From: Dehalococcoidia bacterium
GTDB lineage: Bacteria; Chloroflexota; Dehalococcoidia; Plut-88900
Reading direction: 5' to 3'
Assembly: GCA_965249275.1 (NCBI GenBank)
Contig: CBDFLQ010000007.1
Coordinates: 704,001 to 768,000, forward strand
DNA: 64,000 bases
In this document: positions 2,220 through 20,434 of the stretch, one piece after another
Numbering within the stretch: the first letter of the stretch is position 1
Layout of the letters: each line of letters begins with the position of its first letter
Position numbers and translations under genes: made by a program
Notes under the pieces: model-generated
What the model was told of the DNA's origin: nothing
Databases searched by the model: none
Seen by the model: the letters and a program-made list of their open reading frames with translations, nothing else

Positions 2220-4919
2220 TTAGTTCCCACCCTCTCTCACCAACCTCGCCACCTCATCCAACGCCGCCGACACCTTGCTCTTGTCCTTTCCCCCCGCCTG
2301 CGCCATCTCCGGGGTCCCACCCCCACCCCCTCCCGCTACCTTCGCCACCCTCTTCACGATATTCCCGGCGTGTAAACCCTTGGCCGCCAGGTCAGGCGTC
2401 GCCATGGCAACGAACATCGGCCTGTCGTTTATCACCGACGCCAGCACCACGAACACGCTCCCCAGCTTAGCCTTCAGAAAGTCGCCCATCTCCCGCATCG
2501 TCTCGACATTCGGCGCATCCACCCGGGCCGCGACCACCTGCGCCCCGTCCACATCCTGCACCCGGCCCAGCAGTCCCTCTGCCTCCCGACGCGCCGCATC
2601 CCGCTCCAGCCTGTCCGCCCGCCTGCGCTCCGCGTCTCGCTCTTCTACTAAGGCCGCGACCTTATCGACGATCTCTTCCGCCGGTGATTTCAGTTGTGCC
2701 GATAGCTCTTCAACGAGGTCGTAGCGCCGCACCAGCAGGTCCTGCACCGAGCCCCCAGTCACCGCTTCGATCCTCCTCAGCCCTGACCCTATGCTCCCCT
2801 CATCCGTTACCTGGAAGTTCCACACCTCTCCCGTACGGCCGACGTGCGTCCCTCCGCAAACCTCGAAGCTGAATCTGTCATCCCCATCCCCCATCGACAC
2901 CAGCCTGACCACGTCCGGATACTTGTCCCCGAAGAATGCCAGCGCGCCCCTGGAAATCGCCTCCGGATACGGGGCCTCGTCGTTGGTAATCTGAAGGTCG
3001 GAGCTAATCTTTTCATTCACCAGGTTTCGGATGTCGTGGAGGTCGGCTCTCCCCAGCCCGACCGGATGCGTGAAGTCGAACCTCAACCTGTCTGGCGCAA
3101 CCAGCGACCCCGCCTGCCTGACGTGCTGCCCGAGCACTTGCCTCAGAGCAGCGTGAAGCAAGTGCGTCGCCGTGTGGTTCCTCGCCGACTCCCTCCGGTG
3201 TCCCGGGTCCACTGTCATCGTCACCGGGTCCCCGACAACCATCTCTCCATCCACAACCCTCCCCCGATGCACGTAGAACCCCAACATCGTAGCCTGCGTG
3301 TCCTCGACAATAATCCGGCCGGCCGGCCCCGTGATCTCCCCCCTGTCCCCGACCTGCCCCCCACCCTCCGCGTAGAAGGGCGTCTCCATCGTCACCACTT
3401 CCAACTCCTCGCCTCCCCCAACCCTCTGCACCGACACCCCTTCCCTCAGCAGCCCCACCACCACCGACTCCCCAGCCAGCGTCTCATATCCTGTGAACCG
3501 TGTCGCACCTAGCCCCACCGCCGCATACGCCTCCGACATCTTGTCCTTGCGGAACGACTGGGCTGCCCTCCCCCGCTCCCTCTGCGCCTCCATCTCCCTC
3601 TCAAACCCCTCCATATCCACCGCGAACCCCTCTTCGGCCGCCACCTCTTCTGTGAGTTCCGGCGGGAACCCGTATGTGTCGTATAGCCTGAAAACGTCCC
3701 GTCCCCCGATAACTCGCTTCCCAACGTCATGTGGTTCCTCCTCAATCGGTGTCGGCGGGATTATCTCAACTTTGCCAAGTTTGATTTCTAACGTTCCTAC
3801 GTTGATTGTGAGATTCTTTACTTCGATCATCCCCGCGTCCAAAGTGTCGTGGAACCGAGATTCTTCCTGCTCAATCACATTCAAGATGAACTCCCGGTTC
3901 CTCTCCAGGTCCGGGTACGCCTCCCTCATATTCTCGATAACCGTCTCGGCTATAGTCACCAGCACCGGCTCCCGAACCCCGAGTTTCCGCGCAAACGTCA
4001 CGGCCCGACGCAATATCCTCCGTAGCACGTACCCCCGGCCCTCATTCCCCGGCACCACGCCGTCGCTGATCAGGAAAGTCGTCCCTCGGGCGTGCTCCGC
4101 CAGCACCCGCATCGCCGCATCCGTTTCCTTGTCCGACCCATACGTGCGCCCGGTCACCTCCGACACTTTCCCCATGATCGCCTGGAACCCGTCAGTCTCG
4201 TAGACGTTCGTAACGCCCTGCATTATCGCCGCCGTCCGCTCCAGCCCCATCCCCGTGTCGATGTTCCCGCTAGGCAGGGGTGTCCGATTGCCCTCCGTGT
4301 CCTGGTAGTACTCGGTGAGCACAAGGTTGTAGAACTCGGTGAACCGGTTGCAATCGCAGGCCGGGCCGCAGTCCGGCTTGCCGCACGAAAGCTCCTTCCC
4401 GAAATCGTAGTAGATCTCTGTGCACGGCCCGCACGGCCCCGAGTCCCCCGGCGGCCCCCACCAATTCTCGCTCTCGTCGTACCGTACTAGCCGTTCTTCC
4501 GGCACCCCCAGTTCCCGCCACAGCTCGTACGACTCGTCGTCACTCAGAAAAACGCTTACCCATAGCTTTTCCGGCGGCAGTTTCAGCCGCTTGGTCACCA
4601 GTTCCCACGCCCACTCTATCGCCTCCTTCTTGAAATAGTCCGCAACACTGAAGTTGCCCAGCATTTCGAAGAAGGTCAGGTGGTCTGCATCCCCCACGGA
4701 GTCGATGTCCGTGGTCCGGAAGCACTTCTGGCACGAGGCCAGCCGAGGCGCGGGGGCCTTGGCCTCCCCCGTGAAAAATGGCTTGACCTGCACCACCCCG
4801 GCGCTGGTCAACAGCAGAGTCGGGTCTCCAATGGGTATCAGGGACGAGCTTGGTATGACCAGGTGCCCCTTCGATTCATAAAAGGACAGGAATGCTCGCC
4901 TTAGCTCGTCGCTGTTCAA
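2220..4919 (-). CDS. alaS: Alanine--tRNA ligase
   Basis: DPTLLLTSAG, HLTFFEMLGNFS, IDTGMGLER, LYDTYGFP, HTATHLLH, CGGTH editing motif, C-terminal GGGGG...AQAGG; TTG start. Confidence 0.98.
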   Translation of the reverse strand: MNSDELRRAFLSFYESKGHLVIPSSSLIPIGDPTLLLTSAGVVQVKPFFTGEAKAPAPRLASCQKCFRTTDIDSVGDADHLTFFEMLGNFSVADYFKKEAIEWAWELVTKRLKLPPEKLWVSVFLSDDESYELWRELGVPEERLVRYDESENWWGPPGDSGPCGPCTEIYYDFGKELSCGKPDCGPACDCNRFTEFYNLVLTEYYQDTEGNRTPLPSGNIDTGMGLERTAAIMQGVTNVYETDGFQAIMGKVSEVTGRTYGSDKETDAAMRVLAEHARGTTFLISDGVVPGNEGRGYVLRRILRRAVTFARKLGVREPVLVTIAETVIENMREAYPDLERNREFILNVIEQEESRFHDTLDAGMIEVKNLTINVGTLEIKLGKVEIIPPTPIEEEPHDVGKRVIGGRDVFRLYDTYGFPPELTEEVAAEEGFAVDMEGFEREMEAQRERGRAAQSFRKDKMSEAYAAVGLGATRFTGYETLAGESVVVGLLREGVSVQRVGGGEELEVVTMETPFYAEGGGQVGDRGEITGPAGRIIVEDTQATMLGFYVHRGRVVDGEMVVGDPVTMTVDPGHRRESARNHTATHLLHAALRQVLGQHVRQAGSLVAPDRLRFDFTHPVGLGRADLHDIRNLVNEKISSDLQITNDEAPYPEAISRGALAFFGDKYPDVVRLVSMGDGDDRFSFEVCGGTHVGRTGEVWNFQVTDEGSIGSGLRRIEAVTGGSVQDLLVRRYDLVEELSAQLKSPAEEIVDKVAALVEERDAERRRADRLERDAARREAEGLLGRVQDVDGAQVVAARVDAPNVETMREMGDFLKAKLGSVFVVLASVINDRPMFVAMATPDLAAKGLHAGNIVKRVAKVAGGGGGGTPEMAQAGGKDKSKVSAALDEVARLVREGGN

Positions 4920-5082: not shown

Positions 5083-5250
5083 CCCGCTCGTGCTGTCGCA
5101 GGTGGACCATGCGCCTGTAGAGGATCCGCTTCGGCGGGAACCTGCTGAAAGTGGACCATCCGCCTATGGAGGGTCCGCTTATAGAGGATCGAAGTATGAG
5201 CGGGGGGAGTGGGGCCGCTCGTGCTGAGCCCGTCGAAGTATGAGCGGGGA
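5083..5250. repeat. Nested REP-like palindrome cluster (CCGCTCGTGCTGAGC..TCGAAGTATGAGCGG family)
   Basis: Two copies of ccgctcgtgctg...tcgaagtatgagcgg; the first is interrupted by gtggaccat/ccgcc units. Related copies at ~16601, ~20151 and ~48685. Confidence 0.7.
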
Positions 5251-5327
5251 GGGGTACCGCACCCCATAAATACCAATCGACACCCCTAACCGTGTCATGG
5301 GGTAATGCAGCCACTCCCCGCACCCCA

Positions 5328-5360: not shown

Positions 5361-6341
5361 TTGCCCTACCAACGAGACCTTCTGCCCTCGTTCGCCGGTA
5401 TCAACACCTTCGCCCGTGCCCCGCAGGCCGGATTCGAGGATGTCGGGCCCGGTTGCGTCGCCGTCTTAGGCGTCCCCCACGACGGCTCCTCCACCTCCCG
5501 CCAGGGCGTTAGGCAGGGCCCCCGGGCTATCCGGGAAGCCAGCGCCGACTTCATCTACGAACTCCAGGCCTCCGAGGCTGGTGCCCTCATCGACGTCATA
5601 TCAGGCCGGGTGCTCCACCTCCCCCAACCCTCGACCCTTCTCGACCTCGGAGACCTCACCCTTTCTCCTCTGGACCTTCCCGGCAACCTGGATGCTTGCC
5701 GATCCGCCTTCTCCCGCATCGCCGAAGCCGGTGCCTGCCCCGTCGCCCTCGGCGGCGACCGCTTTATCACATTCCCCCTCCTTGAGGGCGTGAAGGCCGG
5801 ATCGGGCCGCAGCCTCGGCCTGATACGCATCTCCGCTGAACTCTCCCTCGCCGACCCCGATTCCCAATACGGCCCCGATTGGTCCGGCGCTTCTATCCGC
5901 CGCATCCTGGACGCCGGCGGCGTCGAGGCCCGTAACACAGTATTAGTCGGGACCCAGGGCTATATACCCTACCGGGAGTGGGAGTACGCTCGCTCACAGG
6001 GCGTCACCGTAATAACCGCCGACTCAGTGAAAGCCGAGGGCCTCGAGGCAACAGTGCGCCGGGCGTTGGAAATCGCAGGACAGGACTGCGAAGCCGTCTA
6101 CCTCAGCCTCGACATCGGCGTTGTCGACTCCGGCTATGCATCCGGTACCGCCGAAGTTGTAGTCGGTGGCCTTATTCCCCGCGACCTGCTCGCTATCATG
6201 CGCGAGCTTTCCGCATTCCCCAGGGTCGCCGCCCTTGACGTAGTAGAGGTAGCCCCCGGTCTCGACGTCCGAGGACGCTCCGAACGCCTCGCTGCCCAGG
6301 CCATTATCGAACTTATTGCACCCCCCGTTTTCGGGGCGTAA
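5361..6341 (+). CDS. Ureohydrolase (agmatinase/arginase family) paralog 1; metal ligands degenerate
   Basis: GVPHDG, GPRAIREAS, DLGD, DVVEVAP. GGDH->GGDR, DAHxD->SAELS, DID->DIG. TTG start after GGAGG. Confidence 0.88.
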   Translation: MPYQRDLLPSFAGINTFARAPQAGFEDVGPGCVAVLGVPHDGSSTSRQGVRQGPRAIREASADFIYELQASEAGALIDVISGRVLHLPQPSTLLDLGDLTLSPLDLPGNLDACRSAFSRIAEAGACPVALGGDRFITFPLLEGVKAGSGRSLGLIRISAELSLADPDSQYGPDWSGASIRRILDAGGVEARNTVLVGTQGYIPYREWEYARSQGVTVITADSVKAEGLEATVRRALEIAGQDCEAVYLSLDIGVVDSGYASGTAEVVVGGLIPRDLLAIMRELSAFPRVAALDVVEVAPGLDVRGRSERLAAQAIIELIAPPVFGA

Positions 6342-6354
6342 CCCCGAGACCCTT

Positions 6355-7338
6355 ATGACCACACAGTCGGCCCCCGTATCCACACCCGGCATTTCCACCT
6401 TCATGGACCTGCCCCGAGGCGACTTGGAGCACCTCAAAGAAGGTATGGCTGCAATCTGCGGCGTCTCCTATGACCTGTCCTGCACTACTAAGATTGGGTC
6501 GAGGTTTGGCCCACGAGCCATCCGGGATAGCTCCGGTTATTACGCCGGCGCATTCTCCCGCTCCGACCTCGTTGAAATCACTACCGGCGACCGCATGAGC
6601 GGCGACCGTCGCTCCCAAATTCTTGACCTCGGCGACTTCAACGCCTACCCCCTCGACTGGCCCCGCACAGAAAAAGAGCTCCGACGCTCCCTCTACGAAG
6701 TGTCCGCCACCGGTGCGACCCCCGTGATTCTCGGTGGCGATCACTTCGTCTCCTATCCCCTATGCCTCGGCTACGCCGACGCCATCCGCGAGCGCACCGG
6801 CCGCGGCATCGGCTACGTCCAACTTTCCAGCCGACTTGATCTCGGCACCCGAGACCCGGTCTGGGGAGACGTATGGCGTGGCGCAACCGCCCGGCGCATC
6901 CTGGACTCTGGGGCCGTTGCCCCGAAGAACATGGTCTGGATTGGCGTTAACGGCTACCTCCGCCGAGAGGAGTGGGACTTCGCCCAGGAAAGAGAGTTGT
7001 CCGTATTCACTCTCGAAGACGTGCGCCGCCGAGGCCTGCAGAACGTGGTCGAAAACGCAATGGAAATTGCAGGAGACGGATGCGACTCCGTCTACGTCAG
7101 CATCGACTTTGATGTGATGGACGGCGGTATCGTCGCCGCCACCTCAGACCCGTGCTTCGACGGCCTCACCAACGTCCAGCTTCTCAAAGCCGTCGACATC
7201 CTCCGCCGAAAGAAGGCCGGGGCCCTGGACCTTGTTGGCATGAATCCCACGGTGAATATGATTTCCGCCACCGGCCCCCGACTCGGGGCATGGATCGTCA
7301 TCCGGTTCCTCGCTGGAGAGGCCCTCGCCTATCCCTAG
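6355..7338 (+). CDS. Ureohydrolase paralog 2; DAHxD motif degenerate
   Basis: GSRFGPRAIR, GGDHFVS, QLSSRLDLG in place of DAHxD, SIDFDVMD. Confidence 0.88.
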   Translation: MTTQSAPVSTPGISTFMDLPRGDLEHLKEGMAAICGVSYDLSCTTKIGSRFGPRAIRDSSGYYAGAFSRSDLVEITTGDRMSGDRRSQILDLGDFNAYPLDWPRTEKELRRSLYEVSATGATPVILGGDHFVSYPLCLGYADAIRERTGRGIGYVQLSSRLDLGTRDPVWGDVWRGATARRILDSGAVAPKNMVWIGVNGYLRREEWDFAQERELSVFTLEDVRRRGLQNVVENAMEIAGDGCDSVYVSIDFDVMDGGIVAATSDPCFDGLTNVQLLKAVDILRRKKAGALDLVGMNPTVNMISATGPRLGAWIVIRFLAGEALAYP

Positions 7339-7352
7339 GCCATGACTTAACT

Positions 7353-8324
7353 ATGCAAAACTACGCGTACACATCGTCCCCCACCTTCATGGGCGCCCCC
7401 CTTGTAGGCCTCTCCGATGTCCAGCCGGGCATGACGGTGATCAGCGGCGCTCCGCATAGCCTCCGAGACCGCTTCGGCGAGAGGTACGGCCCCCGAGGCA
7501 TCCGCGAGCACTCCCTGCCCCTTGCCCAGAGTTTCGACCGCGCCGAAGAGGGTTTGATCGACGTGTCCACCGGGCGCACCCTCATCCGCCCCACCCAATC
7601 CCCCCTCGTAGACGTCGGCGACTTCAACAGTTACCCCTCCGACGTCATGAAAGCCACCGAGGGCATTGCCGGCGGCGTTTCGGAGGTGGTGATGAGGGGC
7701 GGATTCTCCGTCTGCCTGGGCGGCGACCACTACGTCGGTTACCCATCCTGCCTCGGATACACACGGGCCCTAAGCCAAATCAGGCCCAACGCCCGGGTCG
7801 GCTACATCCACATCGACGGCCACCTCGACTTCGCCGACTCCTACGGCCCCTACGGCAAGTACATGAATGGCACCAACGCCCGCCGAATCTCGGAGCTGGA
7901 CGCCATGGAACCCGCCAACATGGTTTTCATAGGCATCCAGGGCCCCTGCTACCTGGACCAGGTCGAGCTCATCCGCCGCTACGGAGGCACGATTTTCACC
8001 AGCGAGGACGTGGAGGAGATGGGCCCCGAGACCGTCGGACGCCGCGCCGCCGAGCTGGCCCTCAAGGGCTGTGACTCTATCTACATGAGCTTCGACATCG
8101 ACGTCATAGACGCCGGCTTCTCTGACGGCACAGGCTCAGTCACTATGGGGGCCATGACGGCATCCACCCTATTCCGCATCCTCGGGCCCCTGTCCGAATA
8201 TCCCATCGGCGCAATGGACCTTGTGGAGACCTCCCCACCCCTCGACGCCGGCAGCCGCACCCCCCGGTTCGCCGCCGAGGCCCTCGTCAAGCTAATCGCT
8301 CCAAGAATATTTGATATCTATTGA
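7353..8324 (+). CDS. Ureohydrolase paralog 3; intact binuclear metal site
   Basis: GGDHYVG, HIDGHLD, SFDIDVID, DLVETSP; ATG at 7353. Confidence 0.9.
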   Translation: MQNYAYTSSPTFMGAPLVGLSDVQPGMTVISGAPHSLRDRFGERYGPRGIREHSLPLAQSFDRAEEGLIDVSTGRTLIRPTQSPLVDVGDFNSYPSDVMKATEGIAGGVSEVVMRGGFSVCLGGDHYVGYPSCLGYTRALSQIRPNARVGYIHIDGHLDFADSYGPYGKYMNGTNARRISELDAMEPANMVFIGIQGPCYLDQVELIRRYGGTIFTSEDVEEMGPETVGRRAAELALKGCDSIYMSFDIDVIDAGFSDGTGSVTMGAMTASTLFRILGPLSEYPIGAMDLVETSPPLDAGSRTPRFAAEALVKLIAPRIFDIY

Positions 8325-8342
8325 GAACACGACCGACTCGGC

Positions 8343-8555
8343 ATGAAGAAGAGCGTAATCACTTGGCCCATGCTCCTGACGGGGTTAGTCCTGTTTTTCA
8401 TCGCGGGAATCGCGTTGTGGTTTCTCCACGACCTCTTCCACGACAGCATAGGCATATCCCTGTTATTGCTGTGGGTGGTGGCGGTCGTGGCATTTTGGGC
8501 TACCGTCCTGCTAATTGTGCTCAAGCTATTCAAGCAGATTTGGCAGAGAGTCTGA
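8343..8555 (+). CDS. Small two-TM membrane protein
   Basis: 70 aa with two hydrophobic stretches; fills the gap between paralogs 3 and 4 on the same strand. Confidence 0.65.
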   Translation: MKKSVITWPMLLTGLVLFFIAGIALWFLHDLFHDSIGISLLLLWVVAVVAFWATVLLIVLKLFKQIWQRV

Positions 8556-8577
8556 TGCTTAGAGTGACGAGGCCGTA

Positions 8578-9573
8578 ATGCCAATCCGCAGAGGCCCCAC
8601 ACCCAAGACCGGTGGGTTGCTCACCTTCATCGGTGCCCCGACGGGGACTATCGAGGAGCTGACACCCGGCATGTTCGGCGTATTCGGCGTGCCCTACGAT
8701 GTATCCGCCCCCGACCAGCTCGGCCCCCGACTCGCGCCCAAGGCCTATCGGGAAACCTCCACCTACTTCCAGATGATGACCGCCCAGGACGCGACTCTCG
8801 TCGAGATCAACTCCCGCCTTCCAACCGACACCAACCTCGTCCGCGACCGTGTCCGTGACCTGGGTGACCTCCCCGTATCCCACGTCGATTGGGAGATACT
8901 GTCTTTCACCCTTCGGGACGCAGCAAAACGCATCAGCAGCCAGGGCGCCGTGCCCATTGCCCTGGGCGGCGACCACTTCATCGCCTCCGCCTTGGCCCAG
9001 GGCTACCGGAAAGCAACCGGCGGACATATCGGTTATATCCAGCTCTCCAGCCGCCTGGACCTCGGCCTCCGAGACCCCGCTTGGGGAGACGTATGGCGCG
9101 GAGCCACAGTTCGCCGCCTCCTGGACTCGGGGACCGTCCACCCGAAGAACTTGGTATGGATCGGCGCAAACGGCTACATACCGCTCGACCAGTGGCAGAT
9201 TGCAAACAGACTGCCGGCTACTATGATCGACGCAGAGCAAGTCCGCCGCCGCGGCATCCCCAATGTAATAACCGAAGCCCTGGAACGGGCCTCCGACGGC
9301 TGCTCCGGCGTCTTCGTGGGCGTTGACATAGATGTCATGGACGGCGGTTACGTAGCCATGACCGGAACTCCCCGCTTCGACGGCCTCCGAAACGTGGACC
9401 TCTTCGAAGCTCTCACCCTCCTGGCCCGAGGCCCGGTTGGCGGCGTCAGCCTATGTGGCTTAAACCCTCTCATCGAGACCATGAGCCTGGCCAAAACAGG
9501 TCAGCGCTGCGGTGCAGAGATGCTGGTCCGTTTCATCGACGAGAAAATCAGAGTAGCCGAGGCCGCCAAGTGA
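8578..9573 (+). CDS. Ureohydrolase paralog 4; DAHxD motif degenerate (close to paralog 2)
   Basis: GGDHFIA, QLSSRLDLGLRDPAWGDVWRGAT shared with paralog 2, GVDIDVMD. Confidence 0.88.
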   Translation: MPIRRGPTPKTGGLLTFIGAPTGTIEELTPGMFGVFGVPYDVSAPDQLGPRLAPKAYRETSTYFQMMTAQDATLVEINSRLPTDTNLVRDRVRDLGDLPVSHVDWEILSFTLRDAAKRISSQGAVPIALGGDHFIASALAQGYRKATGGHIGYIQLSSRLDLGLRDPAWGDVWRGATVRRLLDSGTVHPKNLVWIGANGYIPLDQWQIANRLPATMIDAEQVRRRGIPNVITEALERASDGCSGVFVGVDIDVMDGGYVAMTGTPRFDGLRNVDLFEALTLLARGPVGGVSLCGLNPLIETMSLAKTGQRCGAEMLVRFIDEKIRVAEAAK

Positions 9574-10571
9574 GTGAATTGCTGGAACACGTAGAAGACA
9601 TCGGCGCAGCCACCTTCCTTGGCTCGCCCTACGTTGCCCTGGACAAAGTTGAGCGCGGGATGGTCGTCATCGGCGGAGCCCCCCACGACAGCACCCACAC
9701 CAGCCGCTTCGGCACCAGAATGGGCCCCCGAGGCATCAGGGAAGGCTCCCTCGCCATGGCCGACCGCATAAGCAGCGCAGGCCCCGACGGCATCCTTGAA
9801 GTCACATCCGGCAACCGGCTCACCACCCCCGCTTCCAACCGACTCGTAGACGTAGGCGACTACAACGTCTACCCATCCGACGTGATGAAGTCCACCGAGG
9901 GCATAGCCGGTGGAGTGGCAGAGGTGGTGCGTCGGGGCGGCTTTTCCGTCTGCCTGGGCGGCGACCACTACGTCGGCTACCCATCCTGTCTAGGCTACAC
10001 CCGAGCCGTCTCCGAGATGTCTCCGAAACCCAAGATTGGCTACATCCACATCGACGGCCACCTCGACTTCCGAGACGACACCCCCGTCTGGGGCAAGTAC
10101 AACCACGGCACCAACGCCCGCCGCATATCCGAGCTCGACCTCGTCAGCCCTTCCAACATGGTCTGGATCGGCATTCAGGGCTGGTCGGACGAGGAGCCCA
10201 TCAGTGCTATCGACTCCCAGGGAGGCCTCATCTTCACCGCCGCCGACGTTCTAAGGATTGGCCCCGAAGAGGTAGCCCGACGCGCAGGCGAGCGCGCTGC
10301 CGCCGGATGCGACTTCATCTATATGTCCGTCGACATCGACTTTATAGACACTGGCTTCTTCCCAGCCACCGGCTCCGTGGTCAACGACGCCATCACCCCC
10401 GACATCATGGCTACTATCCTTCGCGTCCTCTCTGCCTACCCAATAGGCGCCATGGATCTCGTCGAGGTATCTCCCCGCATCGACCCCTCAGGCCGTTCCA
10501 TGATTATGTCCACCGACCTCCTTCTCGCCCACGTGGCCCCCCGCATCTTCGACATTGCGCCAATGGGCTGA
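9570..10571 (+). CDS. Ureohydrolase paralog 5; intact metal site (close to paralog 3)
   Basis: GTG start overlaps the paralog 4 stop (GTGA); GGDHYVG, HIDGHLD, SVDIDFID, DLVEVSP. Confidence 0.9.
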   Translation: MSELLEHVEDIGAATFLGSPYVALDKVERGMVVIGGAPHDSTHTSRFGTRMGPRGIREGSLAMADRISSAGPDGILEVTSGNRLTTPASNRLVDVGDYNVYPSDVMKSTEGIAGGVAEVVRRGGFSVCLGGDHYVGYPSCLGYTRAVSEMSPKPKIGYIHIDGHLDFRDDTPVWGKYNHGTNARRISELDLVSPSNMVWIGIQGWSDEEPISAIDSQGGLIFTAADVLRIGPEEVARRAGERAAAGCDFIYMSVDIDFIDTGFFPATGSVVNDAITPDIMATILRVLSAYPIGAMDLVEVSPRIDPSGRSMIMSTDLLLAHVAPRIFDIAPMG

Positions 10572-10592: not shown

Positions 10593-11270
10593 ATGGGTAT
10601 CCTTGATAAAATCCGGGGCCTCAGTTGGGTTGTAGGCTCCCGAAAGGGCGAAAAAGCCGTCAAAGAGGGGCGCTGGGAAGATGCCCTGGTTCACCTTGAT
10701 GAAGCCCTCGCCCTTAACTCAAAGGATGCCCACGCCTACTTCTACCGAGGTCTCGCCCACGGCGGGCTCGGCAACCTGAACGCCGCAATCCGGGACCTGA
10801 ACTCGGCCAAAAAGTTCGGCCCGCAAGACAGCGCTCTCCTCAGCAACCTCGGCACCTGCTACCTCAGGAAAGGGCATTTTTCCGCCGCGCTCAAGGAATA
10901 CAAGAAGGCCCTGAAAATAAATCCAAAGGACGCCCGAGCCCTGCTTAACGTAGGAATCGTCTATGCCAAACAGGCGGAAACAGCTCCGCCCAGGTCCGAG
11001 CCAAGGCTCACCGCCCGAGCCCTCGAGTCCCTGGACAAGGCCATTATCAGCGATCCAAATCTCCCGGAGGCCTACCACGAGAGGGCACTGCTCCTCGCCG
11101 ACAAAGACCGTCTGAACGAGGCCATAGAAGACCTAACTCGCGCAATCAACATGGACAATTCCTACACCGAAGCCTACCAAGACCGTGAAAGTCTTTACCG
11201 CCGGCTCGACAAGAGTGAAAAGGCGGGTGCGGACAAATCCACCCCTCGGGAGTTGGACCCCGGAACTTAG
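10593..11270 (+). CDS. Tetratricopeptide repeat protein
   Basis: Repeated AYFYRG/LSNLG/A..Y.KAL.INP TPR patterns. Confidence 0.88.
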   Translation: MGILDKIRGLSWVVGSRKGEKAVKEGRWEDALVHLDEALALNSKDAHAYFYRGLAHGGLGNLNAAIRDLNSAKKFGPQDSALLSNLGTCYLRKGHFSAALKEYKKALKINPKDARALLNVGIVYAKQAETAPPRSEPRLTARALESLDKAIISDPNLPEAYHERALLLADKDRLNEAIEDLTRAINMDNSYTEAYQDRESLYRRLDKSEKAGADKSTPRELDPGT

Positions 11271-12900: not shown

Positions 12901-13647
12901 TTATCTATCGTTGACTCGCAGCAGCTCTCGGGCCAGCCCGACTTCCACCCCCAACCCCTCCCATAACGGCATGTCTAAACCCCGACGCATGGCTGCCTTC
13001 GCCGACCCAAGAGCCTCGGCCCCCGAGTTTAAGAACCCCAGGACCATCTCCTCACATCGCGCCGAAAGCCCGCCCTCCGGCGTAATTTCGCTGATTAGGC
13101 CCATCGAAAGGGCCCGCGTCGCGTTCATCCGCTCCGCTGTTAGTAAGGCCCATAGCGCCGCCCCCGAGCCCACGGTTCTTGGCAGAGTCTGAGTCGCCCC
13201 CGCCGCCGGGATGAACCCCAGCGAAGTCTCGGGCAATCCGAATATCGCATTCGGCGCCGCAATTCTTATGTCGCAGCAAAGAGCAAGCTCCAGCCCGGAC
13301 CCAAAAACGTACCCATGAAGAGCGGCTATCGTCGGTATTGGCAGGTCCATCAGCAACCCCCACACGTCCCGCTCCCACCGCACCTGCCGCGCAATCCTCT
13401 GCGACGGCGCAGTCCCGAACTCCGTGAGGTCCGCCCCCGCACAGAACGCCCTATCCCCCGCCCCCGAGATTACCAGTGCCCTCACATCCGGGTCGAGAGA
13501 GACCGCGGTCAACGCCTCGTACACGTCGTCCCGCATCTGCACATTGTACGCGTTAAGGACCCGTGGCCTGTTCAGCACGATCCGGGCCAAGGGCCCCTGC
13601 CTTTCGTAGATTACAGTCTCGAAGCTGCTCATGGAGTCGCTATTCAC
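12901..13647 (-). CDS. Enoyl-CoA hydratase/isomerase family protein
   Basis: LNRP, AFCAGADL, GSGLELALCCD, PETSLG. Confidence 0.92.
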   Translation of the reverse strand: MNSDSMSSFETVIYERQGPLARIVLNRPRVLNAYNVQMRDDVYEALTAVSLDPDVRALVISGAGDRAFCAGADLTEFGTAPSQRIARQVRWERDVWGLLMDLPIPTIAALHGYVFGSGLELALCCDIRIAAPNAIFGLPETSLGFIPAAGATQTLPRTVGSGAALWALLTAERMNATRALSMGLISEITPEGGLSARCEEMVLGFLNSGAEALGSAKAAMRRGLDMPLWEGLGVEVGLARELLRVNDR

Positions 13648-14404
13648 CGTGGAACTCGGGCTTTCGCTTCTCCAGGAACGACCTTATCCCCTCGGCCCGG
13701 TCCGCCGTCGACTGCAGGATTACCGTCAGGTCCTGCTCCAGCCTGAGGCCTTGGTCCAGAGTCATGTCCATGCCCTTGCCTATGGTTTCCTTGGCATATT
13801 CCAGCGCCACCGGAGCATGTCCCGCTATCTTATGCGCTAGGCCCAGGGCCTCGTCTTGGAGAGTGTCTTTAGCGAACACGGCATGTACCAGTCCCATGCC
13901 GAGGGCCTCCTCGGCTCCCACCGTCATCCCTGTCAAAACCATCGCCGCCCCCCGCCCCCTCCCGACCAGCCTTGGAAGCCGCTGCGTTCCCCCGTCCCAG
14001 GGCATCATCCCAAACCGGATCTGGTCCATTGCAATTACTGCCTCGTCGGATGCCACACGCAGATCGCATGCAAGAGCCAGCTCCAGCCCCAAACCTGATG
14101 CGTCCCCGTTTATCGCCGCGATGACCGGCATCGGCAGCCGAGCAATATGCCCCGAAGCTCCGATCATCCCCTCCCCACCCCCCTCTCGCAACTCCCTCAC
14201 CGCCTCTTCCGTCCCTCCGGAGAACATTGACCCCTCCCCCCTCACCACCACCACCCGAACGCTTCCCCCATCCACAATAGATTCACATGCCGCGCTCAAG
14301 TCCTCGGACATCTGCGCGTTCACGCGGTTCGACGCATCGTCCCCCTTCAATGTAACTAGGGCGACGGAGCCATTTAGTTGGAGGTTTATGTAACGGTATC
14401 GCAT
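13640..14404 (-). CDS. Enoyl-CoA hydratase/isomerase family protein
   Basis: IAAING..GLGLELALACD, GGTQRLPRLVG, EKRKPEF. Confidence 0.9.
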   Translation of the reverse strand: MRYRYINLQLNGSVALVTLKGDDASNRVNAQMSEDLSAACESIVDGGSVRVVVVRGEGSMFSGGTEEAVRELREGGGEGMIGASGHIARLPMPVIAAINGDASGLGLELALACDLRVASDEAVIAMDQIRFGMMPWDGGTQRLPRLVGRGRGAAMVLTGMTVGAEEALGMGLVHAVFAKDTLQDEALGLAHKIAGHAPVALEYAKETIGKGMDMTLDQGLRLEQDLTVILQSTADRAEGIRSFLEKRKPEFHGE

Positions 14405-14559
14405 CCTGAGAGCTCCAGCAGTTCGATGCCGGATGGATTGGGCGATTTTAGCACAGGGCTCGGGCCCAATGGCCTCGTTTCACCATCACTCTTCATTCAT
14501 GGACGCAAATATCCGGCTATGCTAAGCTTGACCTTCCAAAAGACCAGTAAACAGGGGGT

Positions 14560-15720
14560 GTGCCCTTGCAATTCGGATATTTTTCCGTTCTAGATAACCC
14601 TAGACTTGAAATTCCCTATAACCAGATCCTGACCGAGCTTTCCGAACAGACCCAAGCCGTCGAGCAGGCTGGATTCAACGGCGTGTGGCTCGGAGAACAT
14701 CACTTCGGAGGAGAGGGATATGACTGCATCCCCAACCCGCTGATGATTCTCTCCCACCTCGCTGCTCAGACCACCACCATCCGGCTGGGCCTTGCCGCCG
14801 TAATAGTACCCCAGTGGCACCCTCTCCGAATCGCCGAAGATGTCGCCATGCTCGACCAGCTAAGCGGCGGCCGCGTCGAGTGCGGTGTCGGACGAGGCAT
14901 CTTCCCCAGGGAACTCACCAACCTCAACATCGACGCCGACCGCCGCAATGACGCGAAGAACTGGCGTCTCTTCACCGAAACCGTAGAGATCATGAAACGG
15001 GCCTGGACCGAAGACCCCTTCACCTGGGACGGGGAGTTTTACAAGTTCCCCCATACCGGCGTCCAGGACAGCCACTCCTGGCTTCCCAGGGACCCGAGAT
15101 ACCGCTCCAAGACGGGCGAGTACATAGGCATGTCGATTCAGCCCAAACCCCTCCAGACTCCCACCCCTCCACTCTGGAACGTAGTCGACAAGACTCCCGG
15201 TTTTGTCGTCGCCGCCGAGCTCGGACTCAAGCCCATGACCTGGCTCCGCGCCCGCAACGGTCTCCGAGAGGCCTTCTCCACCTACCAGGAGGCCGCGACA
15301 CGCATCAACGGCCGGCCCATGGCTCTCGGTGAAGACTGCGCCCTTCTCCGCACCACCTTCGTCGCCGAGACCATGGAAGAGGCCCGCAGAATCGCCGAAG
15401 GACCTCTCAACCAGCTCTGCAAATATGTAGGGGGCGTCCGTGCCCGTTCCATCTACCTGGACCCGGGCGAAGAGCTTACCGACGAAGACAAAGCCAAGCC
15501 GTGGTTCGACTTCCTGATGGACAAGGACCACATTCTCATCGGCGACCCGGAGTTCGTCGCCGAGAAGATCCGGGGCATTGGGCGGGAGTACCAGCTTGAG
15601 AGCCTGTTAACCCTCATGGCTATGCCCGGCCTGGACCATCGCGACGTGATGCGCTCCATTGAGCTCTTCGCCGAGAAGGTCATTCCCCTCGTCGAGGCTC
15701 CACAGGCCGCCGTAGGTTAG
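14560..15720 (+). CDS. Luciferase-like (LLM class) flavin-dependent monooxygenase
   Basis: WLGEHHF, HPLRIAEDVAMLDQLSGGRVECGVGRG, PKPLQ. Confidence 0.93.
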   Translation: MPLQFGYFSVLDNPRLEIPYNQILTELSEQTQAVEQAGFNGVWLGEHHFGGEGYDCIPNPLMILSHLAAQTTTIRLGLAAVIVPQWHPLRIAEDVAMLDQLSGGRVECGVGRGIFPRELTNLNIDADRRNDAKNWRLFTETVEIMKRAWTEDPFTWDGEFYKFPHTGVQDSHSWLPRDPRYRSKTGEYIGMSIQPKPLQTPTPPLWNVVDKTPGFVVAAELGLKPMTWLRARNGLREAFSTYQEAATRINGRPMALGEDCALLRTTFVAETMEEARRIAEGPLNQLCKYVGGVRARSIYLDPGEELTDEDKAKPWFDFLMDKDHILIGDPEFVAEKIRGIGREYQLESLLTLMAMPGLDHRDVMRSIELFAEKVIPLVEAPQAAVG

Positions 15721-15730
15721 TGCGGCCGCG

Positions 15731-16441
15731 TTAGCCGAGCATCTCCAGCGCTTCCACGTGGCTCATGGATACGCACGTAAAAATAGGCGTGTCGCTAAGG
15801 GTGTAGGAGCTTGCCTCCGTCCCGCGCAGCTCCATCACTAGGTCCAGAAAGTCGGAGGGGCTGTCTGTTTCGAAGGACACCATGAACTCCTGGTCGTCCA
15901 GCCCGAAGGAATAGCTGGTATTTATCTTCACCGAAGGGTACTTGTGTCCCATGGTGATGTGGGAGTCCATCATCCGCTGCCGCGTTGCCTTCTCCAGGGC
16001 GTACCAGGCCCGAGTCTTCACGAACGGATAGACGAACAGGTACTTCGCCTCAGTCGGCCTGATCCTTAGCCTGCTTCCCTCTTGTCCCGGGTGCCGGTGC
16101 TTATCCGAGTATATCGACTTCCGGGTCATCGCAAGGTAGGAATACGGCGTCTCCAGGTGGCAACCCAGGCCCGTCGAAAGTAATGCCGAGGTCAGCTGCT
16201 GAATCGGCTCCAGCTGATCGCATGCGTTCCAGATCAGCAGGTCTGCATCTCCCCTGGTCCCGACGGTGCTGTAGCTCTTCACCATCATCCTGTCCGAAAA
16301 CTCGTCGAGAATCGCCAGGAACTGTCCCCTGCCCTGTGACTTTTCACCATCGGAAAGCCCGCGCCAAGACCTGTCGGCCTTGAAGAACGTGTATTTAACA
16401 TACGATCTGCCGCTATTACTATCGCTCACAATATCTCCCAT
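15731..16441 (-). CDS. Chlorite dismutase / coproheme decarboxylase (HemQ/ChdC) family protein
   Basis: YPFVKTRAWY, proximal His in HITMGH, SFGLDDQEF, DTPIFT. Confidence 0.88.
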   Translation of the reverse strand: MGDIVSDSNSGRSYVKYTFFKADRSWRGLSDGEKSQGRGQFLAILDEFSDRMMVKSYSTVGTRGDADLLIWNACDQLEPIQQLTSALLSTGLGCHLETPYSYLAMTRKSIYSDKHRHPGQEGSRLRIRPTEAKYLFVYPFVKTRAWYALEKATRQRMMDSHITMGHKYPSVKINTSYSFGLDDQEFMVSFETDSPSDFLDLVMELRGTEASSYTLSDTPIFTCVSMSHVEALEMLG

Positions 16442-16465
16442 CTATCTGTGCTGGCCCTCTCCCCC

Positions 16466-16557
16466 GTAGGGGCGGTTCGCGAACCGCCCGATGTCCCGCA
16501 CTGACGCTGCGCGAACCACCCGACTAGCCCCCCGTAGGGGCGGTTCGTGAACCGCCC
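16466..16557. repeat. Pair of GTAG-type REP palindromes (GTAGGGGCGGTTCGyGAACCGCCC)
   Basis: Direct copies at 16466-16489 and 16534-16557, each GTAG plus a hairpin. Confidence 0.8.
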
Positions 16558-16600
16558 GACGCCCCACTCTCACCCTGTCTAAGGGTTGTGTGGCGGTGGG

Positions 16601-16636
16601 GCCGCTCACCCTGAGGCCCTCGAAGGGTCGAGCGGT
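16601..16636. repeat. REP-like palindrome (CCGCTCACCCTGAG..TCGAAGGGTCGAGCGG)
   Basis: Same family as copies at ~20151 and ~48685 (inverted). Confidence 0.7.
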
Positions 16637-16755
16637 GGGGGATCGCTTTGTGTTGAGCGTCGCGCGCCTCACCCGCTGACAACGTTCGCAAAATGCCCTC
16701 ATTACTACCCGCAATTCTACACATCTCACCGCCCCCCGACCAAACCATCCCCGGC

Positions 16756-18972: not shown

Positions 18973-18977
18973 CCCAT

Positions 18978-19967
18978 CTACGCCTTTGCGCCCCGGACTT
19001 CGGGGTTGGGCGTGTTCGGCAGCGGCTCCCCATTCAGGCCCGCCATCAAGTTGTCGACGGCCATCAGGGACATTTTGGTGCGCGTCACCACGCTCCCGCT
19101 CGCAATGTGCGGAGCAATGATCACGTTCTCCAGGGTAAGCAGTGGGTCATCCATCGAGATAGGCTCTACCTCCGTCACATCCAGCCCCGCCGCTCCTATC
19201 GTCCCATCCTTCAGCGCATGGTATAGCGCCGTCTGATCGACAACCGGGCCCCTCGAAGTGTTCACCAGCACCGCCGTCGACTTCATCCCCGCAAGGGTGT
19301 CTGCATTTATAAGGTGCCGAGTCTCGGGAGTGAGGTTCACATGAATGCTTACGAAGTCGGACTGAGCAAGGAGTTCCTTAACGTCCGAGCAGTATGTCGC
19401 CCCGTACTCTTTTTCCCTCTCCTCGTTGCGAATCACGTCGTAGTAGACGATGTTCATCCCGAACCCCTTGGCCCGCTTCGCCATCTCCACCCCTATCCGC
19501 CCAAACCCGATTATCCCCAGCGTAGACCCGTGGATGTCCTGCCCCAGCAGCACCATCGGGCCCCAGGTCTTCCAGTTTCCGGCTCTCGTGTACCTGTCTC
19601 CTTCCGACACCCGGCGGCCAGCCGCCATAAGCAACGCAAAGGCGAAGTCCGCAGTCGTCTCGGTCAGAACTCCCGGCGTGTTCCCCACCGGGATACCCCG
19701 CTTGGTCGCCTCAGCTACGTCAATGTTGTCGAATCCGACAGCCATGTTGCTCACAACCCGCAGATTGGGCGCGGCATCAAAAAGCTCTGCGTCAATCTTC
19801 TCGGTCAGCAGGCAGAACAACCCGTCTATGTCCTGGACTTCCCGAAGAAGTTCCTCCCGAGAGGGCGGCATCTCCGAGTCCCAGTATTTCATGTCGGTCG
19901 CCTCTCTTAGACGGTCGACAGCCTCATCGAATATCTGTCTTGTAACGTAAATCTTGGGTTTGGCCAT
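18978..19967 (-). CDS. gyaR: Glyoxylate/hydroxypyruvate reductase (D-glycerate dehydrogenase)
   Basis: [42 protein letters not shown]; ATG at 19967 after GGAGG. Confidence 0.88.
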
Positions 19968-20039
19968 CAATGACCTCCGGCGAAAGTATTGGGCTATTCT
20001 ACCTTTCGCCATTCCCCTTTGCTACCACCCACCCCCGAG

Positions 20040-20380
20040 GGAAGCCTGTCCGCCTTAGGCGGATCATTCCGGCCGCCGAGAGCCGGTCGAAGATGCTGAA
20101 AGTGCGCCTTTGGCGTGCGCCGAGGCGTGAATCCATCCCCCGGCCGATGGCCCGCTCACCCTGAGCCTGCTGTAAGTCCGCTGAGGCGGATCGAAGGGTC
20201 GAGCGGGGGGCGGCCCCCGACTGCCAATCCGTCACCCCCGCCGTCATCCCAACCAAGCCCCCCTACCCTGTCATTCCGAGGCCCCGCGAGGAATCTGGGG
20301 GGCGGAGTCCTATCCCCTCTCCCTTTGACGGGAGAGGGCTAGAGCCTGCCCCGAGTCCCCCCGAGGGGGTGAGGGTGATC
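20040..20380. repeat. Cluster of several REP-like palindrome families
   Basis: ccgccttaggcgg; ccgctcaccctgag..gagcgg; gtcattccgag..gaatct (inverse at 47760-47800); ccctctccc..gggagaggg..gggtgaggg (inverse at ~48535). Confidence 0.75.
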
Positions 20381-20390
20381 CCCCCCAAAA

Positions 20391-20434
20391 GTGACACCAG
20401 CCCCTTGACCCGATATGAACATATGTACTATATT
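20391..20434 (+). promoter_or_regulatory. Sigma70-type promoter with LexA-like box (copy A)
   Basis: GTGACACCAGCCCC-TTGACC-N18-TATATT with GAACATATGTAC (20417-20428) in the spacer; homologous promoters at 32122-32164 and 48473-48516. Confidence 0.7.

What the first reader, a model, noticed from the sequence alone, without database searches (positions are those of the whole stretch)
5361..10571. Five tandem ureohydrolases alternating pseudo-enzyme and catalytic subunits: candidate heteromeric guanidino hydrolases
Seen in sequence: paralogs 3 and 5 keep all binuclear-metal motifs (GGDH, DGHLD, DID). Paralogs 2 and 4 replace DxH with SSR (QLSSRLDLG). Paralog 1 has lost nearly all ligands (GGDR, SAELS, DIG). 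Paralog 2 resembles 4 and paralog 3 resembles 5, so an inactive+active module appears duplicated; 4 and 5 are translationally coupled (GTGA). The degenerate copies are full-length with conserved segments, so they do not look like decaying pseudogenes. Established: metformin hydrolase MfmAB is a heteromer of one catalytic and one metal-site-deficient ureohydrolase subunit. Inference: two or more novel heteromeric enzymes, or one multi-subunit complex, for unknown guanidino/ureido compounds in dissolved organic nitrogen.
Basis: partly seen in the sequence, partly recalled or inferred. Interest (0 to 1): 0.8.

Follow-up and report, generated by a model that had tools for sequence, protein, structure and literature searches.

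The report
Five-gene ureohydrolase cluster with pseudo-subunits
A marine-type Dehalococcoidia bacterium carries a conserved block of five related guanidine-cleaving-type enzyme genes, two with an intact metal centre and three with a ruined one that evolution has nevertheless kept, which suggests a multi-subunit enzyme of a kind known so far only from metformin breakdown.

Summary
Window 5361-10571 holds five tandem, same-strand arginase-family (PF00491) genes. P3 and P5 keep all six metal ligands. P2 and P4 carry SSRLD in place of DxHxD. P1 keeps one ligand of six.

The block occurs in the same order in 12 of 12 species genomes of the organism's order (4 genera). All five genes are under purifying selection (dN/dS 0.05-0.14).

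The three degenerate genes form one clade, separate from the P3/P5 clade. Their altered residues are themselves conserved: Ser for the first Asp, Gly for the substrate-binding Glu, and an invariant Arg.

None of the five reaches an agmatinase, arginase or HutG equivalog cut-off. The nearest solved structures are guanidine hydrolases at about 26-35% identity, not metformin hydrolase. No HypA or HypB/UreG-type nickel chaperone was found in this genome.

Best reading (about 0.5): one or more heteromeric ureohydrolases with P3/P5 catalytic and P1/P2/P4 as non-catalytic partner subunits. This would be analogous to MefH/DmgH but independently evolved, with substrate unknown. Physical association is not shown; the one complex prediction gave no verdict.

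No description of this cluster turned up in four literature searches. Verdict: a real, selected, undescribed variant of a recently discovered enzyme architecture, still awaiting biochemistry.

The parts
5361..6341 (+). P1: ureohydrolase paralog of the degenerate (beta-type) clade. Keeps 1 of 6 metal ligands (R-S-E-S-D-G). Fastest evolving of the five.
   Evidence: PF00491 at 5e-58. Motifs. TTG start with AAAGGGAGG upstream. dN/dS 0.14. Sits in one clade with the P2/P4 families.
6355..7338 (+). P2: degenerate (beta-type) paralog with ligand pattern H-S-R-D-D-D. Also Gly in place of the conserved Glu, and an invariant Arg in WRGAT.
   Evidence: Model pLDDT 91.4, full ureohydrolase fold. dN/dS 0.067.
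7353..8324 (+). P3: paralog with all six ligands (H-D-H-D-D-D); presumed catalytic (alpha-type).
   Evidence: 66 of 68 family members are HDHDDD. dN/dS 0.047.
8343..8555 (+). Small 70-aa ORF, hydrophobic (two hydrophobic stretches by eye), in the P3-P4 gap. Specific to this genus; whether it belongs to the system is unknown.
   Evidence: Intact and 57-84% identical in L003-L006. Not recognisable in L001 or L002. The gap is only 9-89 nt in the three other genera.
8578..9573 (+). P4: degenerate (beta-type) paralog, H-S-R-D-D-D, sister of P2.
   Evidence: dN/dS 0.10.
9570..10571 (+). P5: paralog with all six ligands, sister of P3; presumed catalytic. Its GTG start overlaps the P4 stop (GTGA).
   Evidence: (62 of 62 family members HDHDDD). 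dN/dS 0.077.
10593..11270 (+). TPR-repeat protein directly downstream. It follows the cluster in some relatives only; membership doubtful.
   Evidence: Pfam TPR families. Next to the cluster in L001-L004 and L040. On the other side of the cluster and on the opposite strand in L006. Not found in L005, L038 or L039.

Best explanation
The five genes are one functional unit that encodes a heteromeric ureohydrolase, or two related ones.

P3 and P5 are the catalytic subunits, with a normal binuclear metal centre. They would hydrolyse a guanidino (amidino) compound to urea plus an amine.

P1, P2 and P4 descend from one ancestor that lost the binuclear centre. They serve as non-catalytic partner subunits that co-assemble with P3/P5 in the trimer/hexamer typical of the fold. 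They would stabilise the catalytic subunit and perhaps shape its substrate channel, as MefH-beta/MetCb does for metformin and dimethylguanidine hydrolase.

Shown: the gene anatomy, the ligand states, selection, conservation of the block, the separate origin from MefH, and the lack of nickel chaperone genes.

Inferred: physical assembly, the roles of the subunits, the metal (more likely Mn than Ni) and the substrate (unknown; not a canonical agmatinase, arginase or HutG by the curated models).
For: **1. Conserved block.** The order P1-P2-P3-P4-P5 is intact in 6 congeners and in 3 other genera. By coordinates it is present in 12 of 12 species genomes of the order. The flanking genes differ between genera.

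**2. Tight packing.** Gaps are 13-14 nt for P1-P2 and 6-14 nt for P2-P3. P4 and P5 overlap by 4 bases in the window and 5 of 6 congeners. The P3-P4 gap is 9-89 nt in the other genera.

**3. Purifying selection on all five.** Median NG86 dN/dS over 21 within-genus pairs: P1 0.144, P2 0.067, P3 0.047, P4 0.103, P5 0.077.

**4. The degenerate state is itself conserved.**
- 100 of 113 full-length P2 homologs, down to 43% identity, have Ser at the first Asp of DxHxD.
- In the P2 and P4 families the conserved Glu is Gly in 142 of 144 and 20 of 21 members.
- A nearby position is Arg in 144 of 144 and 20 of 21.

**5. Single origin of the degenerate paralogs.** The P1, P2 and P4 families form one clade (SH-aLRT 96) and P3+P5 another (95). 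A tree that forces P2 together with P3 is rejected (delta lnL 313.6, p-AU 1.4e-7).

**6. Co-occurrence.**
- P2-type and P3-type genes occur in the same 12 genomes of a 401-genome class sample and in none of the 388 others above weak similarity.
- Among database homologs, 50 contig lengths are shared by two or more hits. These include short contigs of 5270, 6533 and 9497 bp that hold P1-, P2- and P3-type proteins together.

**7. Precedent.** MefH/DmgH is active only as an alpha/beta heteromer with a degenerate beta subunit; alpha alone is inactive and largely insoluble (PMC11399263, passages; PMC11271267, passages).

**8. Fold.** P2 folds as a complete ureohydrolase (pLDDT 91.4). Its structural neighbours are guanidinases, guanidinopropionase and both metformin hydrolase chains at TM about 0.8.

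**9. Weak evidence of expression.** Contigs from 4 metatranscriptome libraries (2 studies), at 90-95% identity, cover parts of all five genes and bridge the P1/P2, P3/P4 and P4/P5 junctions. DNA carry-over in those libraries cannot be excluded.
Against: - No result here shows that any two of these proteins bind.
- P2 and P4 keep four of the six ligands (His, Asp, Asp, Asp). Three are invariant or nearly so across the family. This could mean a retained single-metal or ligand site rather than a dead one.
- Tandem canonical ureohydrolase pairs without a degenerate partner also exist in this genome (C7:807675 and C7:808747), so tandem paralogy alone does not imply a complex.
- Three beta-type genes to two alpha-type genes does not map simply onto the alpha2beta4 stoichiometry of MefH.
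- All genomes with the block that I could inspect directly belong to one order, so the co-occurrence counts are not independent.
- The contig-length matching assumes that equal lengths mean the same contig.
- The clade for the AU test was named after the tree had been seen.
Confidence: 0.5

Rival explanations
1. Five separate homo-oligomeric enzymes arose by tandem duplication and diverged in substrate. P2 and P4 would use a remodelled site (one metal held by His/Asp/Asp, or metal-free with the invariant Arg) for a different reaction. P1 would be a further variant.
For: - P2/P4 retain His101-, Asp128-, Asp232- and Asp234-equivalents (numbering recalled). S158, D162 and D251 are invariant and H130 is nearly invariant in 103 sequences.
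- The genome holds 15 PF00491 genes, including canonical tandem pairs, so paralog expansion for many substrates is this lineage's habit.
- P2's dN/dS (0.067) is as low as that of an enzyme.
Against: - The residue replacing the second-metal His is not fixed: Q, R, G, N, K, H or S.
- The Glu that binds the guanidinium group in this family (role recalled) is Gly in 162 of 165 P2/P4-type proteins.
- In the P1 lineage the remaining ligands decay stepwise, HSQDDD to HSQADG to RSQSDG to RSESDG, while the gene stays under selection. That fits a role that does not need the site.
- Strict conservation of order and tight spacing across four genera is unusual for independent enzymes.
Confidence: 0.22
2. 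P3 and P5 are ordinary self-sufficient enzymes. P1, P2 and P4 are non-catalytic proteins that act apart from them, for example as binding proteins or sensors for a guanidino compound, or as transient folding or metal-loading helpers. They would not be stable subunits.
For: - The same selection and conservation evidence applies.
- The conserved Arg/Ser/Gly set in the former pocket could form a binding site.
- No nickel chaperones are encoded, so some other helper function is conceivable.
Against: - No DNA-binding or signalling domain is attached: each protein has a single PF00491 domain.
- No regulator or transporter is conserved next to the block.
- The only characterised role of a degenerate ureohydrolase paralog encoded beside an active one is as a stable subunit (PMC11399263, PMC11271267, passages).
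Confidence: 0.15
3. P1, P2 and P4 are decaying duplicates with no function.
For: Metal ligands are lost. P1 and P4 evolve about twice as fast as P3 at non-synonymous sites.
Against: - All are intact in 10 of 10 loci inspected.
- dN/dS is 0.07-0.14.
- The families persist down to about 45-50% identity with conserved signature residues.
- The fold is predicted with confidence.
Confidence: 0.03

Closest known systems
Metformin hydrolase MefH / MfmAB / MetCaCb and dimethylguanidine hydrolase DmgH (heteromeric ureohydrolases; PDB 8ryi, 8snf, 8x3g)
   Same: - Adjacent ureohydrolase paralogs, one with an intact and one with a degenerate binuclear site.
- The degenerate one is conserved and full-length.
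- The alignment to MefH-beta shows a shared Gln at the second-metal His position and a retained third residue of DxHxD: GAQLD in MefH-beta against SSQLD here.
- P1's GGDR also matches MefH-beta's GGDR.
   Different: - Not orthologous. The P2-family profile scores 143.7 bits to a guanidine hydrolase and 104.6 to MefH-beta (rank 7). P5 scores 121.9 to guanidine hydrolase against 65.7-70.8 to the alpha chains.
- Five genes (three beta-type, two alpha-type) instead of two.
- P2/P4 lost 2 of 6 ligands plus the Glu. MefH-beta lost 4 of 6 and, in the alignment, keeps the Glu.
- No hypA/hypB-type genes in the genome, whereas MefH-like pairs usually sit beside them (PMC11271267, passage).
- Li et al. 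listed 56 such pairs in four phyla, none of them Chloroflexota (passage).
Guanidine hydrolase GdmH of Synechocystis (7esr/7oi1) and guanidinase of Nitrospira inopinata (9fek)
   Same: Best PDB sequence match for all five paralogs and best structural match of the P2 model.
   Different: - Identity is only about 26% in the structural alignment of P2; about a third for P5 by my reading of the alignment.
- The 55-65-residue N-terminal extension of those chains is missing: the alignments start at chain residue 66-74.
- These enzymes are homomeric and nickel-dependent with dedicated chaperones (PMC11271267, passage). No such chaperone genes were found here.
[quoted passage not shown] 2024
   Same: An independently evolved tandem of ureohydrolase genes in the phylum Chloroflexota, noted in one sentence of PMC11399263 (passage).
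   Different: A different class, and a pair rather than five genes as far as that sentence says. I could not see the supplementary tree, so I cannot tell whether any member of the present family is in it. A Limnocylindrales protein in my searches (P0529) is only 32% identical to P1.
Metal-free arginase-fold pseudoenzymes that stand alone (eukaryotic and prokaryotic examples cited in PMC11271267)
   Same: Arginase fold with a lost binuclear centre, kept by selection.
   Different: Those are single genes with unknown function (passage). Here the degenerate paralogs are always encoded together with intact ones.

Membership tests
Arginase/ureohydrolase family (Pfam PF00491) | Significant full-length match to the family profile | tested here: met
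   All five score 135.6-197.2 bits against a cut-off of 22.
Arginase/ureohydrolase family (Pfam PF00491) | Six-residue binuclear metal site (H, D, H, D, D, D) | tested here: met
   Met for P3 and P5 only. P2 and P4 have 4 of 6 and P1 has 1 of 6.
Agmatinase SpeB (TIGR01230), arginase RocF (TIGR01229), formimidoylglutamase HutG (TIGR01227) | Score at or above the curated equivalog cut-off | tested here: not met
   The best scores of the five are far below the cut-offs: for example P5 scores 93.3 against 174.3, and P1 scores 122.4 against 229.15. Three other paralogs of the genome do pass TIGR01230, at 182.5, 198.7 and 193.1.
MefH/DmgH-type heteromeric ureohydrolase | Adjacent genes for an intact and a degenerate ureohydrolase paralog | tested here: met
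   P2 next to P3 and P4 next to P5; conserved in 12 of 12 genomes of the order.
MefH/DmgH-type heteromeric ureohydrolase | Orthology to the MefH-alpha and MefH-beta clades | tested here: not met
   All five, and the P2-family profile, score higher to guanidine hydrolases and guanidino-acid hydrolases than to either MefH chain.
MefH/DmgH-type heteromeric ureohydrolase | Nickel dependence with hypA/hypB-type chaperone genes nearby | tested here: not met
   No PF01155 (HypA) and no PF02492 (HypB/UreG/CobW) match in the 87%-complete genome. Strong PF02492 matches occur in only 2 of 12 genomes of the order, on ORFs of about 335 aa. The metal itself is not testable here.
MefH/DmgH-type heteromeric ureohydrolase | Stable alpha/beta hetero-oligomer; alpha inactive alone | not testable with these tools
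   Needs co-expression and purification. The single complex prediction gave no verdict (see Tried and rejected).
Guanidine hydrolase (GdmH / guanidinase) | Close sequence relationship to characterised members | tested here: inconclusive
   They are the best PDB hits, but at E 3.5e-34 and 122 bits for P5 and 26% identity in the structural alignment of P2. No curated model for this family matched in NCBIfam.
Guanidine hydrolase (GdmH / guanidinase) | Nickel chaperones (GhaA/GhaB, HypA/HypB homologs) required for activation | tested here: not met
   None found in the genome. The requirement is as stated in PMC11271267 (passage).

The most novel reading that the evidence does not exclude
All five paralogs assemble into a single hetero-hexamer of the MefH type. 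P3 and P5 would take the two catalytic positions, and P1, P2 and P4 (one of them twice) the four non-catalytic positions. That would be a ureohydrolase built from five different paralogous chains. In the beta-type chains the metal cluster would be replaced by an invariant Arg salt-bridged to the retained Asp residues. The enzyme would act on a natural guanidino compound not yet known as a microbial substrate.
Probability: 0.12. Interest if true: 0.85.

Novelty: new variant of a known kind. Interest (0 to 1): 0.62.

Why it matters
Heteromeric ureohydrolases with a pseudo-enzyme subunit were first described in 2024. They are known only from metformin and dimethylguanidine hydrolases of Proteobacteria and a few other phyla, and were called unprecedented in the family.

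This cluster would show three things:
- The architecture arose a second time, in Chloroflexota.
- It is old enough to have diversified into three distinct non-catalytic and two catalytic paralog families.
- It works without the nickel chaperone genes that accompany the known cases.

It also gives a clean natural series of how a binuclear metal site decays under continued selection (HDHDDD to HSQDDD to RSQSDG to RSESDG).

It marks an uncharacterised guanidino-compound hydrolase in a lineage that carries 15 ureohydrolase genes in 2.9 Mb. Nine of the 12 genomes of the order have a urease alpha subunit that could use the urea released.

Tried and rejected
**Complex prediction.** Complex prediction with P3 (alignment A4) and P2 (alignment A3) scored 0.02 against a mark of 0.32 and gave no verdict. 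It is not used for or against binding.

**Metagenome scan.** The search for related loci on metagenome contigs with the P2-family alignment used patterns that were too general. Of 79 loci, only L041, L042 and L044 carry close relatives (P3-P4, P4-P5 and P3-P4 pairs). L043 is a distant, apparently fragmented cluster. The rest are ordinary ureohydrolases at 23-33% identity.

**Genome samples.** A phylum sample found no P2-type gene (400 other genomes; best hit 34% identity). A class sample found none outside the organism's own order (388 others; G434 has only 39-42% hits). So I could not inspect the gene neighbourhood of the 45-65%-identity relatives seen in the protein databases. I used equal contig lengths as a proxy.

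**Plasmid search.** The search meant to fetch mfmAB as tree references returned only agmatinase-like genes at 30-33% identity. The tree therefore contains no characterised enzymes. The relation to known enzymes rests on PDB scores.

**Fusion search.** Four longer hits were scanned. None has two arginase domains; P0235 is an arginase domain plus an amidohydrolase domain. No 'longer' homolog search was left to run, so fused forms are not excluded.

**Other checks with nothing to add.**
- Rfam found no riboswitch in the window.
- ESM Atlas gave only generic agmatinase-family clusters.
- The promoter/terminator scan gave nothing above the shuffled expectation that helps.
- Parts of the region without cover in single RNA runs are not interpreted.

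**Literature.** Four searches found no paper on this cluster. Supplementary trees and tables of the two metformin hydrolase papers were not opened and might include relatives.

Full report
**What is there**

The window is part of contig 7 of a 2.9-Mb, 87%-complete genome. Its nearest named relatives are metagenome-assembled Dehalococcoidia.

Between alaS (minus strand, 2220-4919) and a TPR protein gene lie five same-strand ORFs:
- P1: 5361-6341
- P2: 6355-7338
- P3: 7353-8324
- P4: 8578-9573
- P5: 9570-10571

P1 begins at a TTG seven bases after AAAGGGAGG. Each protein is a single full-length PF00491 domain.

P3 and P5 have GGDH, DGHLD and DID. P2 and P4 have GGDH, SSRLD and D(F/I)D. P1 has GGDR, SAELS and DIG.

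Written as the six metal ligands, in the order His101, Asp124, His126, Asp128, Asp232, Asp234 (rat arginase numbering, recalled, not from a call), the patterns are:
- P3 and P5: HDHDDD
- P2 and P4: HSRDDD
- P1: RSESDG

P2 and P4 are 46% identical, P3 and P5 59%, and P1 is 31-36% identical to the rest. The P4 stop and the P5 start overlap as GTGA.

**Not decaying**

The same five genes, full length and in the same order, are present in six other species of the genus (L001-L006). They are also present in three further genera of the same family (L038-L040). By the coordinates, all 12 species genomes held for the order have all five.

Amino-acid identity to the window falls to these ranges in the other genera:
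- P3: 72-79%
- P5: 74-80%
- P2: 66-70%
- P1: 57-63%
- P4: 48-62%

Within the genus, Nei-Gojobori dN/dS over 21 pairs has these medians: P3 0.047, P2 0.067, P5 0.077, P4 0.103, P1 0.144. The neighbouring TPR gene gives 0.163 over 15 pairs. So the degenerate copies evolve faster but are clearly constrained.

An AlphaFold2 model of P2 built on 103 family members has mean pLDDT 91.4 and pTM 0.92. It superposes on guanidinase, guanidinopropionase, both metformin hydrolase chains and GdmH at TM about 0.8.

**The degenerate state is a conserved character**

Of 113 full-length homologs of P2 from the 5.8-billion-protein collection, the 100 closest (96% down to 43% identity) all have Ser at the Asp124 position. 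Their motif is typically QFSS(Q/R)LDL. The canonical DxHxD returns only among the 13 most distant, in 11 of them.

Homologs were classed by their nearest window paralog, at 40% identity or more:
- P3-type: 66 of 68 are HDHDDD.
- P5-type: 62 of 62 are HDHDDD.
- P2-type: at least 146 of 149 have the Ser.
- P4-type: 21 of 21 have the Ser.

Two further positions set the P2/P4 families apart (members at 45% identity or more):
- The Glu of the C-terminal (V/L)VExxP motif is Gly in 142 of 144 P2-type and 20 of 21 P4-type proteins. I recall this Glu as the guanidinium-binding Glu277 of arginase. It is Glu in 63 of 64 P3-type, 58 of 59 P5-type and 63 of 71 P1-type proteins.
- The position I take to be the His141 equivalent is Arg in 144 of 144 P2-type and 20 of 21 P4-type proteins (motif WRGAT).

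The residue that replaces His126 is not fixed (Q, R, G, N, K, H, S). By contrast, S158, D162 and D251 are invariant and H130 nearly so in the 103-sequence alignment.

My inference, untested, is that the invariant Arg pairs with the retained Asp residues and fills the place of the metals.

**P1 belongs with P2 and P4**

P1's relatives at 55-62% identity carry QLS(S/T)QLDL and all of H, D, D, D. That is the P2-type site. Closer relatives read HSQADG, then RSQSDG, then RSESDG in the window. P1 is therefore the far end of a stepwise decay, not a different kind of protein.

A maximum-likelihood tree of 80 rows (quick search, SH-aLRT only, midpoint root) included:
- the five window paralogs;
- the ten other paralogs of this genome;
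- sampled family members;
- 14 distant canonical hits;
- 9 odd ones.

It puts the P3 and P5 families in one clade (95). It puts the P1, P2 and P4 families in another (96), with P2 and P4 sister groups (99). The best tree that forces the P2 and P3 families together is 313.6 log-likelihood units worse (p-AU 1.4e-7). I chose that test after seeing the tree.

The simplest history is one alpha/beta split and one loss of the binuclear site, followed by duplications to three beta-type and two alpha-type genes.

**A unit, and where it occurs**

Spacing inside the block is tight. Gaps are 13-14 nt for P1-P2 and 6-14 nt for P2-P3, and P4/P5 overlap by 4 bases in the window and 5 of 6 congeners.

The only larger gap, P3-P4, is 253 nt in the window and holds a 70-aa hydrophobic ORF (8343-8555). 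That ORF is conserved in L003-L006 but not in L001 or L002. It is absent in the other genera, where the gap is 9-89 nt.

Flanking genes differ between genera:
- G401: MoxR/DUF58 genes upstream.
- G402: a transposase upstream and RusA downstream.
- G403: the TPR gene downstream.

No transporter, regulator or chaperone gene travels with the block.

In a 401-genome sample of the class, P2-type and P3-type genes were found in the same 12 genomes, all in the order. Neither type was found at comparable similarity in the 388 others; one genome, G434, has 39-42% hits. A 400-genome phylum sample had none. These 12 genomes are kin, so this is one observation, not twelve.

The protein databases hold many P1-, P2-, P3- and P5-type sequences at 45-70% identity. 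They come from 'Chloroflexi/Dehalococcoidia' metagenome bins, and two are labelled Methylomirabilota. I could not fetch their contigs. However, 50 contig lengths are shared by hits of different types. They include contigs of 5270 bp (P1-type, two P2-types, P3-type), 6533 bp (P1, P2, P3) and 9497 bp (P1, P2, P3, P5).

Three metagenome loci show P3-P4 or P4-P5 adjacency directly (L041, L042, L044).

**Relation to known enzymes**

None of the five reaches a curated NCBIfam equivalog cut-off. Three other paralogs of the genome do pass the agmatinase model, so the block is not the housekeeping agmatinase.

The best PDB sequence matches for P1, P2 and P5, and for the P2-family profile, are the Synechocystis guanidinium hydrolase (7esr/7oi1) and the Nitrospira inopinata guanidinase (9fek). 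Guanidinopropionase, guanidinobutyrase and proclavaminate amidinohydrolase follow. Metformin hydrolase chains come lower: for example 143.7 bits against 104.6 for MefH-beta with the profile (entry titles).

The alignment to MefH-beta shows it as GGDR / GAQLD / NFN with the Glu kept, that is R-G-Q-D-N-N. This fits the 'four of six' stated by Sinn et al. The two beta lineages thus share Gln for His126 and a retained Asp128, but otherwise differ. With the score ranking, this points to convergence rather than common descent.

Sinn et al. (PMC11399263; passages read) report the following:
- MefH and DmgH are alpha2beta4 hexamers.
- Alpha alone is inactive and largely insoluble.
- Beta subunits are exchangeable and have little effect on specificity.
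- 'A second tandem arrangement ... in putative Limnocylindrales' evolved independently.

Li et al. (PMC11271267; passages read) found 56 MetCaCb-like pairs in four phyla, not including Chloroflexota. Most sit beside nickel chaperone genes, and the MetCb clade has three to five ligands mutated. I did not open either paper's supplements.

**Metal and fate of the product**

The genome has no HypA match and no match to the HypB/UreG/CobW family (genome 87% complete). In the order, strong matches to that GTPase family occur in only 2 of 12 genomes. A nickel enzyme of the GdmH/MefH type, which depends on such chaperones in vivo (PMC11271267, passage), is therefore less likely than a manganese enzyme. 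This is inference.

A urease alpha subunit at about 650-690 bits is present in 9 of 12 genomes of the order. It was not found in this genome, G402 or G403. No urea or guanidine carboxylase was found.

**Expression**

Four metatranscriptome libraries from two studies hold contigs at 90-95% identity. These cover parts of all five genes and bridge P1/P2 (6045-7207), P3/small ORF/P4 (8320-8963) and P4/P5 (9300-10363).

They come from a relative rather than this strain. Contigs cannot show a single transcript, and DNA carry-over is possible. This is weak support that the degenerate genes are transcribed.

**Verdict**

The interpretation, heteromeric ureohydrolase(s) with pseudo-enzyme subunits, is the best-supported reading (about 0.5). 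It rests on conserved co-location, selection, the conserved nature of the altered site and one well-studied precedent. It does not rest on any evidence of contact: the one complex prediction gave no verdict.

The main rival (about 0.22) is that P2/P4 have a remodelled, still functional site and act on their own.

The system is not a member of the MefH/DmgH lineage, nor of any curated ureohydrolase subfamily. Four literature searches found no description of it.

Noticed in passing
window 23339-24936 (+): A complete bacterial 16S rRNA gene (1512.6 bits; 1598 nt against a 1533-position model). No 23S or 5S match appears anywhere in the 64-kb window, so the rRNA genes seem to be unlinked.
   Followed up: no
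window 8343-8555 (+): A 70-aa hydrophobic ORF (two hydrophobic stretches by eye) sits in the P3-P4 gap. It is conserved at 57-84% identity in L003-L006 and not recognisable in L001 or L002. It is absent in the three other genera, and there is no second copy in the genome.
   Followed up: partly
window 5100-5260, upstream of P1: Short direct repeats lie here. The 16-mer at 5189 recurs at 5233 and has 56 copies in the genome. RNA-library contig depth spikes here, with many loose ends. It looks like a dispersed small repeat element.
   Followed up: partly
G000, whole genome: The 2.9-Mb genome holds 15 PF00491 genes. These include a near-identical canonical tandem pair at C7:807675 and C7:808747, and a divergent pair at C7:288426 (-) and C7:290376 (+). 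Two very divergent paralogs have GQNS in place of GGDH (C7:72458, C7:475099) and sit on a long branch of the tree.
   Followed up: partly
genomes G401, G404-G411 of the same order: A urease alpha subunit is present in 9 of 12 genomes. A strong match to the UreG/HypB/CobW GTPase family is present in only 2 of 12, and on ORFs of about 335 aa, which are longer than I recall UreG to be. How these ureases get their nickel is unclear.
   Followed up: no
L038 6018-7022 (G401): One genus has a sixth ureohydrolase gene directly upstream of P1. It is 38% identical to P3 and has a full PF00491 match.
   Followed up: no
L043 (metagenome contig, 36 kb): A distant version of the cluster: P2-like at 36%, P3-like at 38%, P4-like at 44%, plus pieces of others. 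The ORFs are shortened or split, so it may be decayed or poorly assembled.
   Followed up: no
window 12904-23134 and 41993-57114: The rest of the window is rich in luciferase-like monooxygenases, FAD oxidoreductases (DAO), MFS transporters, a Rieske protein, enoyl-CoA hydratase and an acyl-CoA synthetase. There is also a chlorite-dismutase-family gene at 15734-16441.
   Followed up: no
PDB 8ryi chain C against P2: MefH-beta and the P1/P2/P4 clade, although not each other's closest relatives, share Gln at the second-metal His position and keep the third residue of DxHxD (GAQLD against SSQLD). This is a possible convergent solution for emptying the site.
   Followed up: partly
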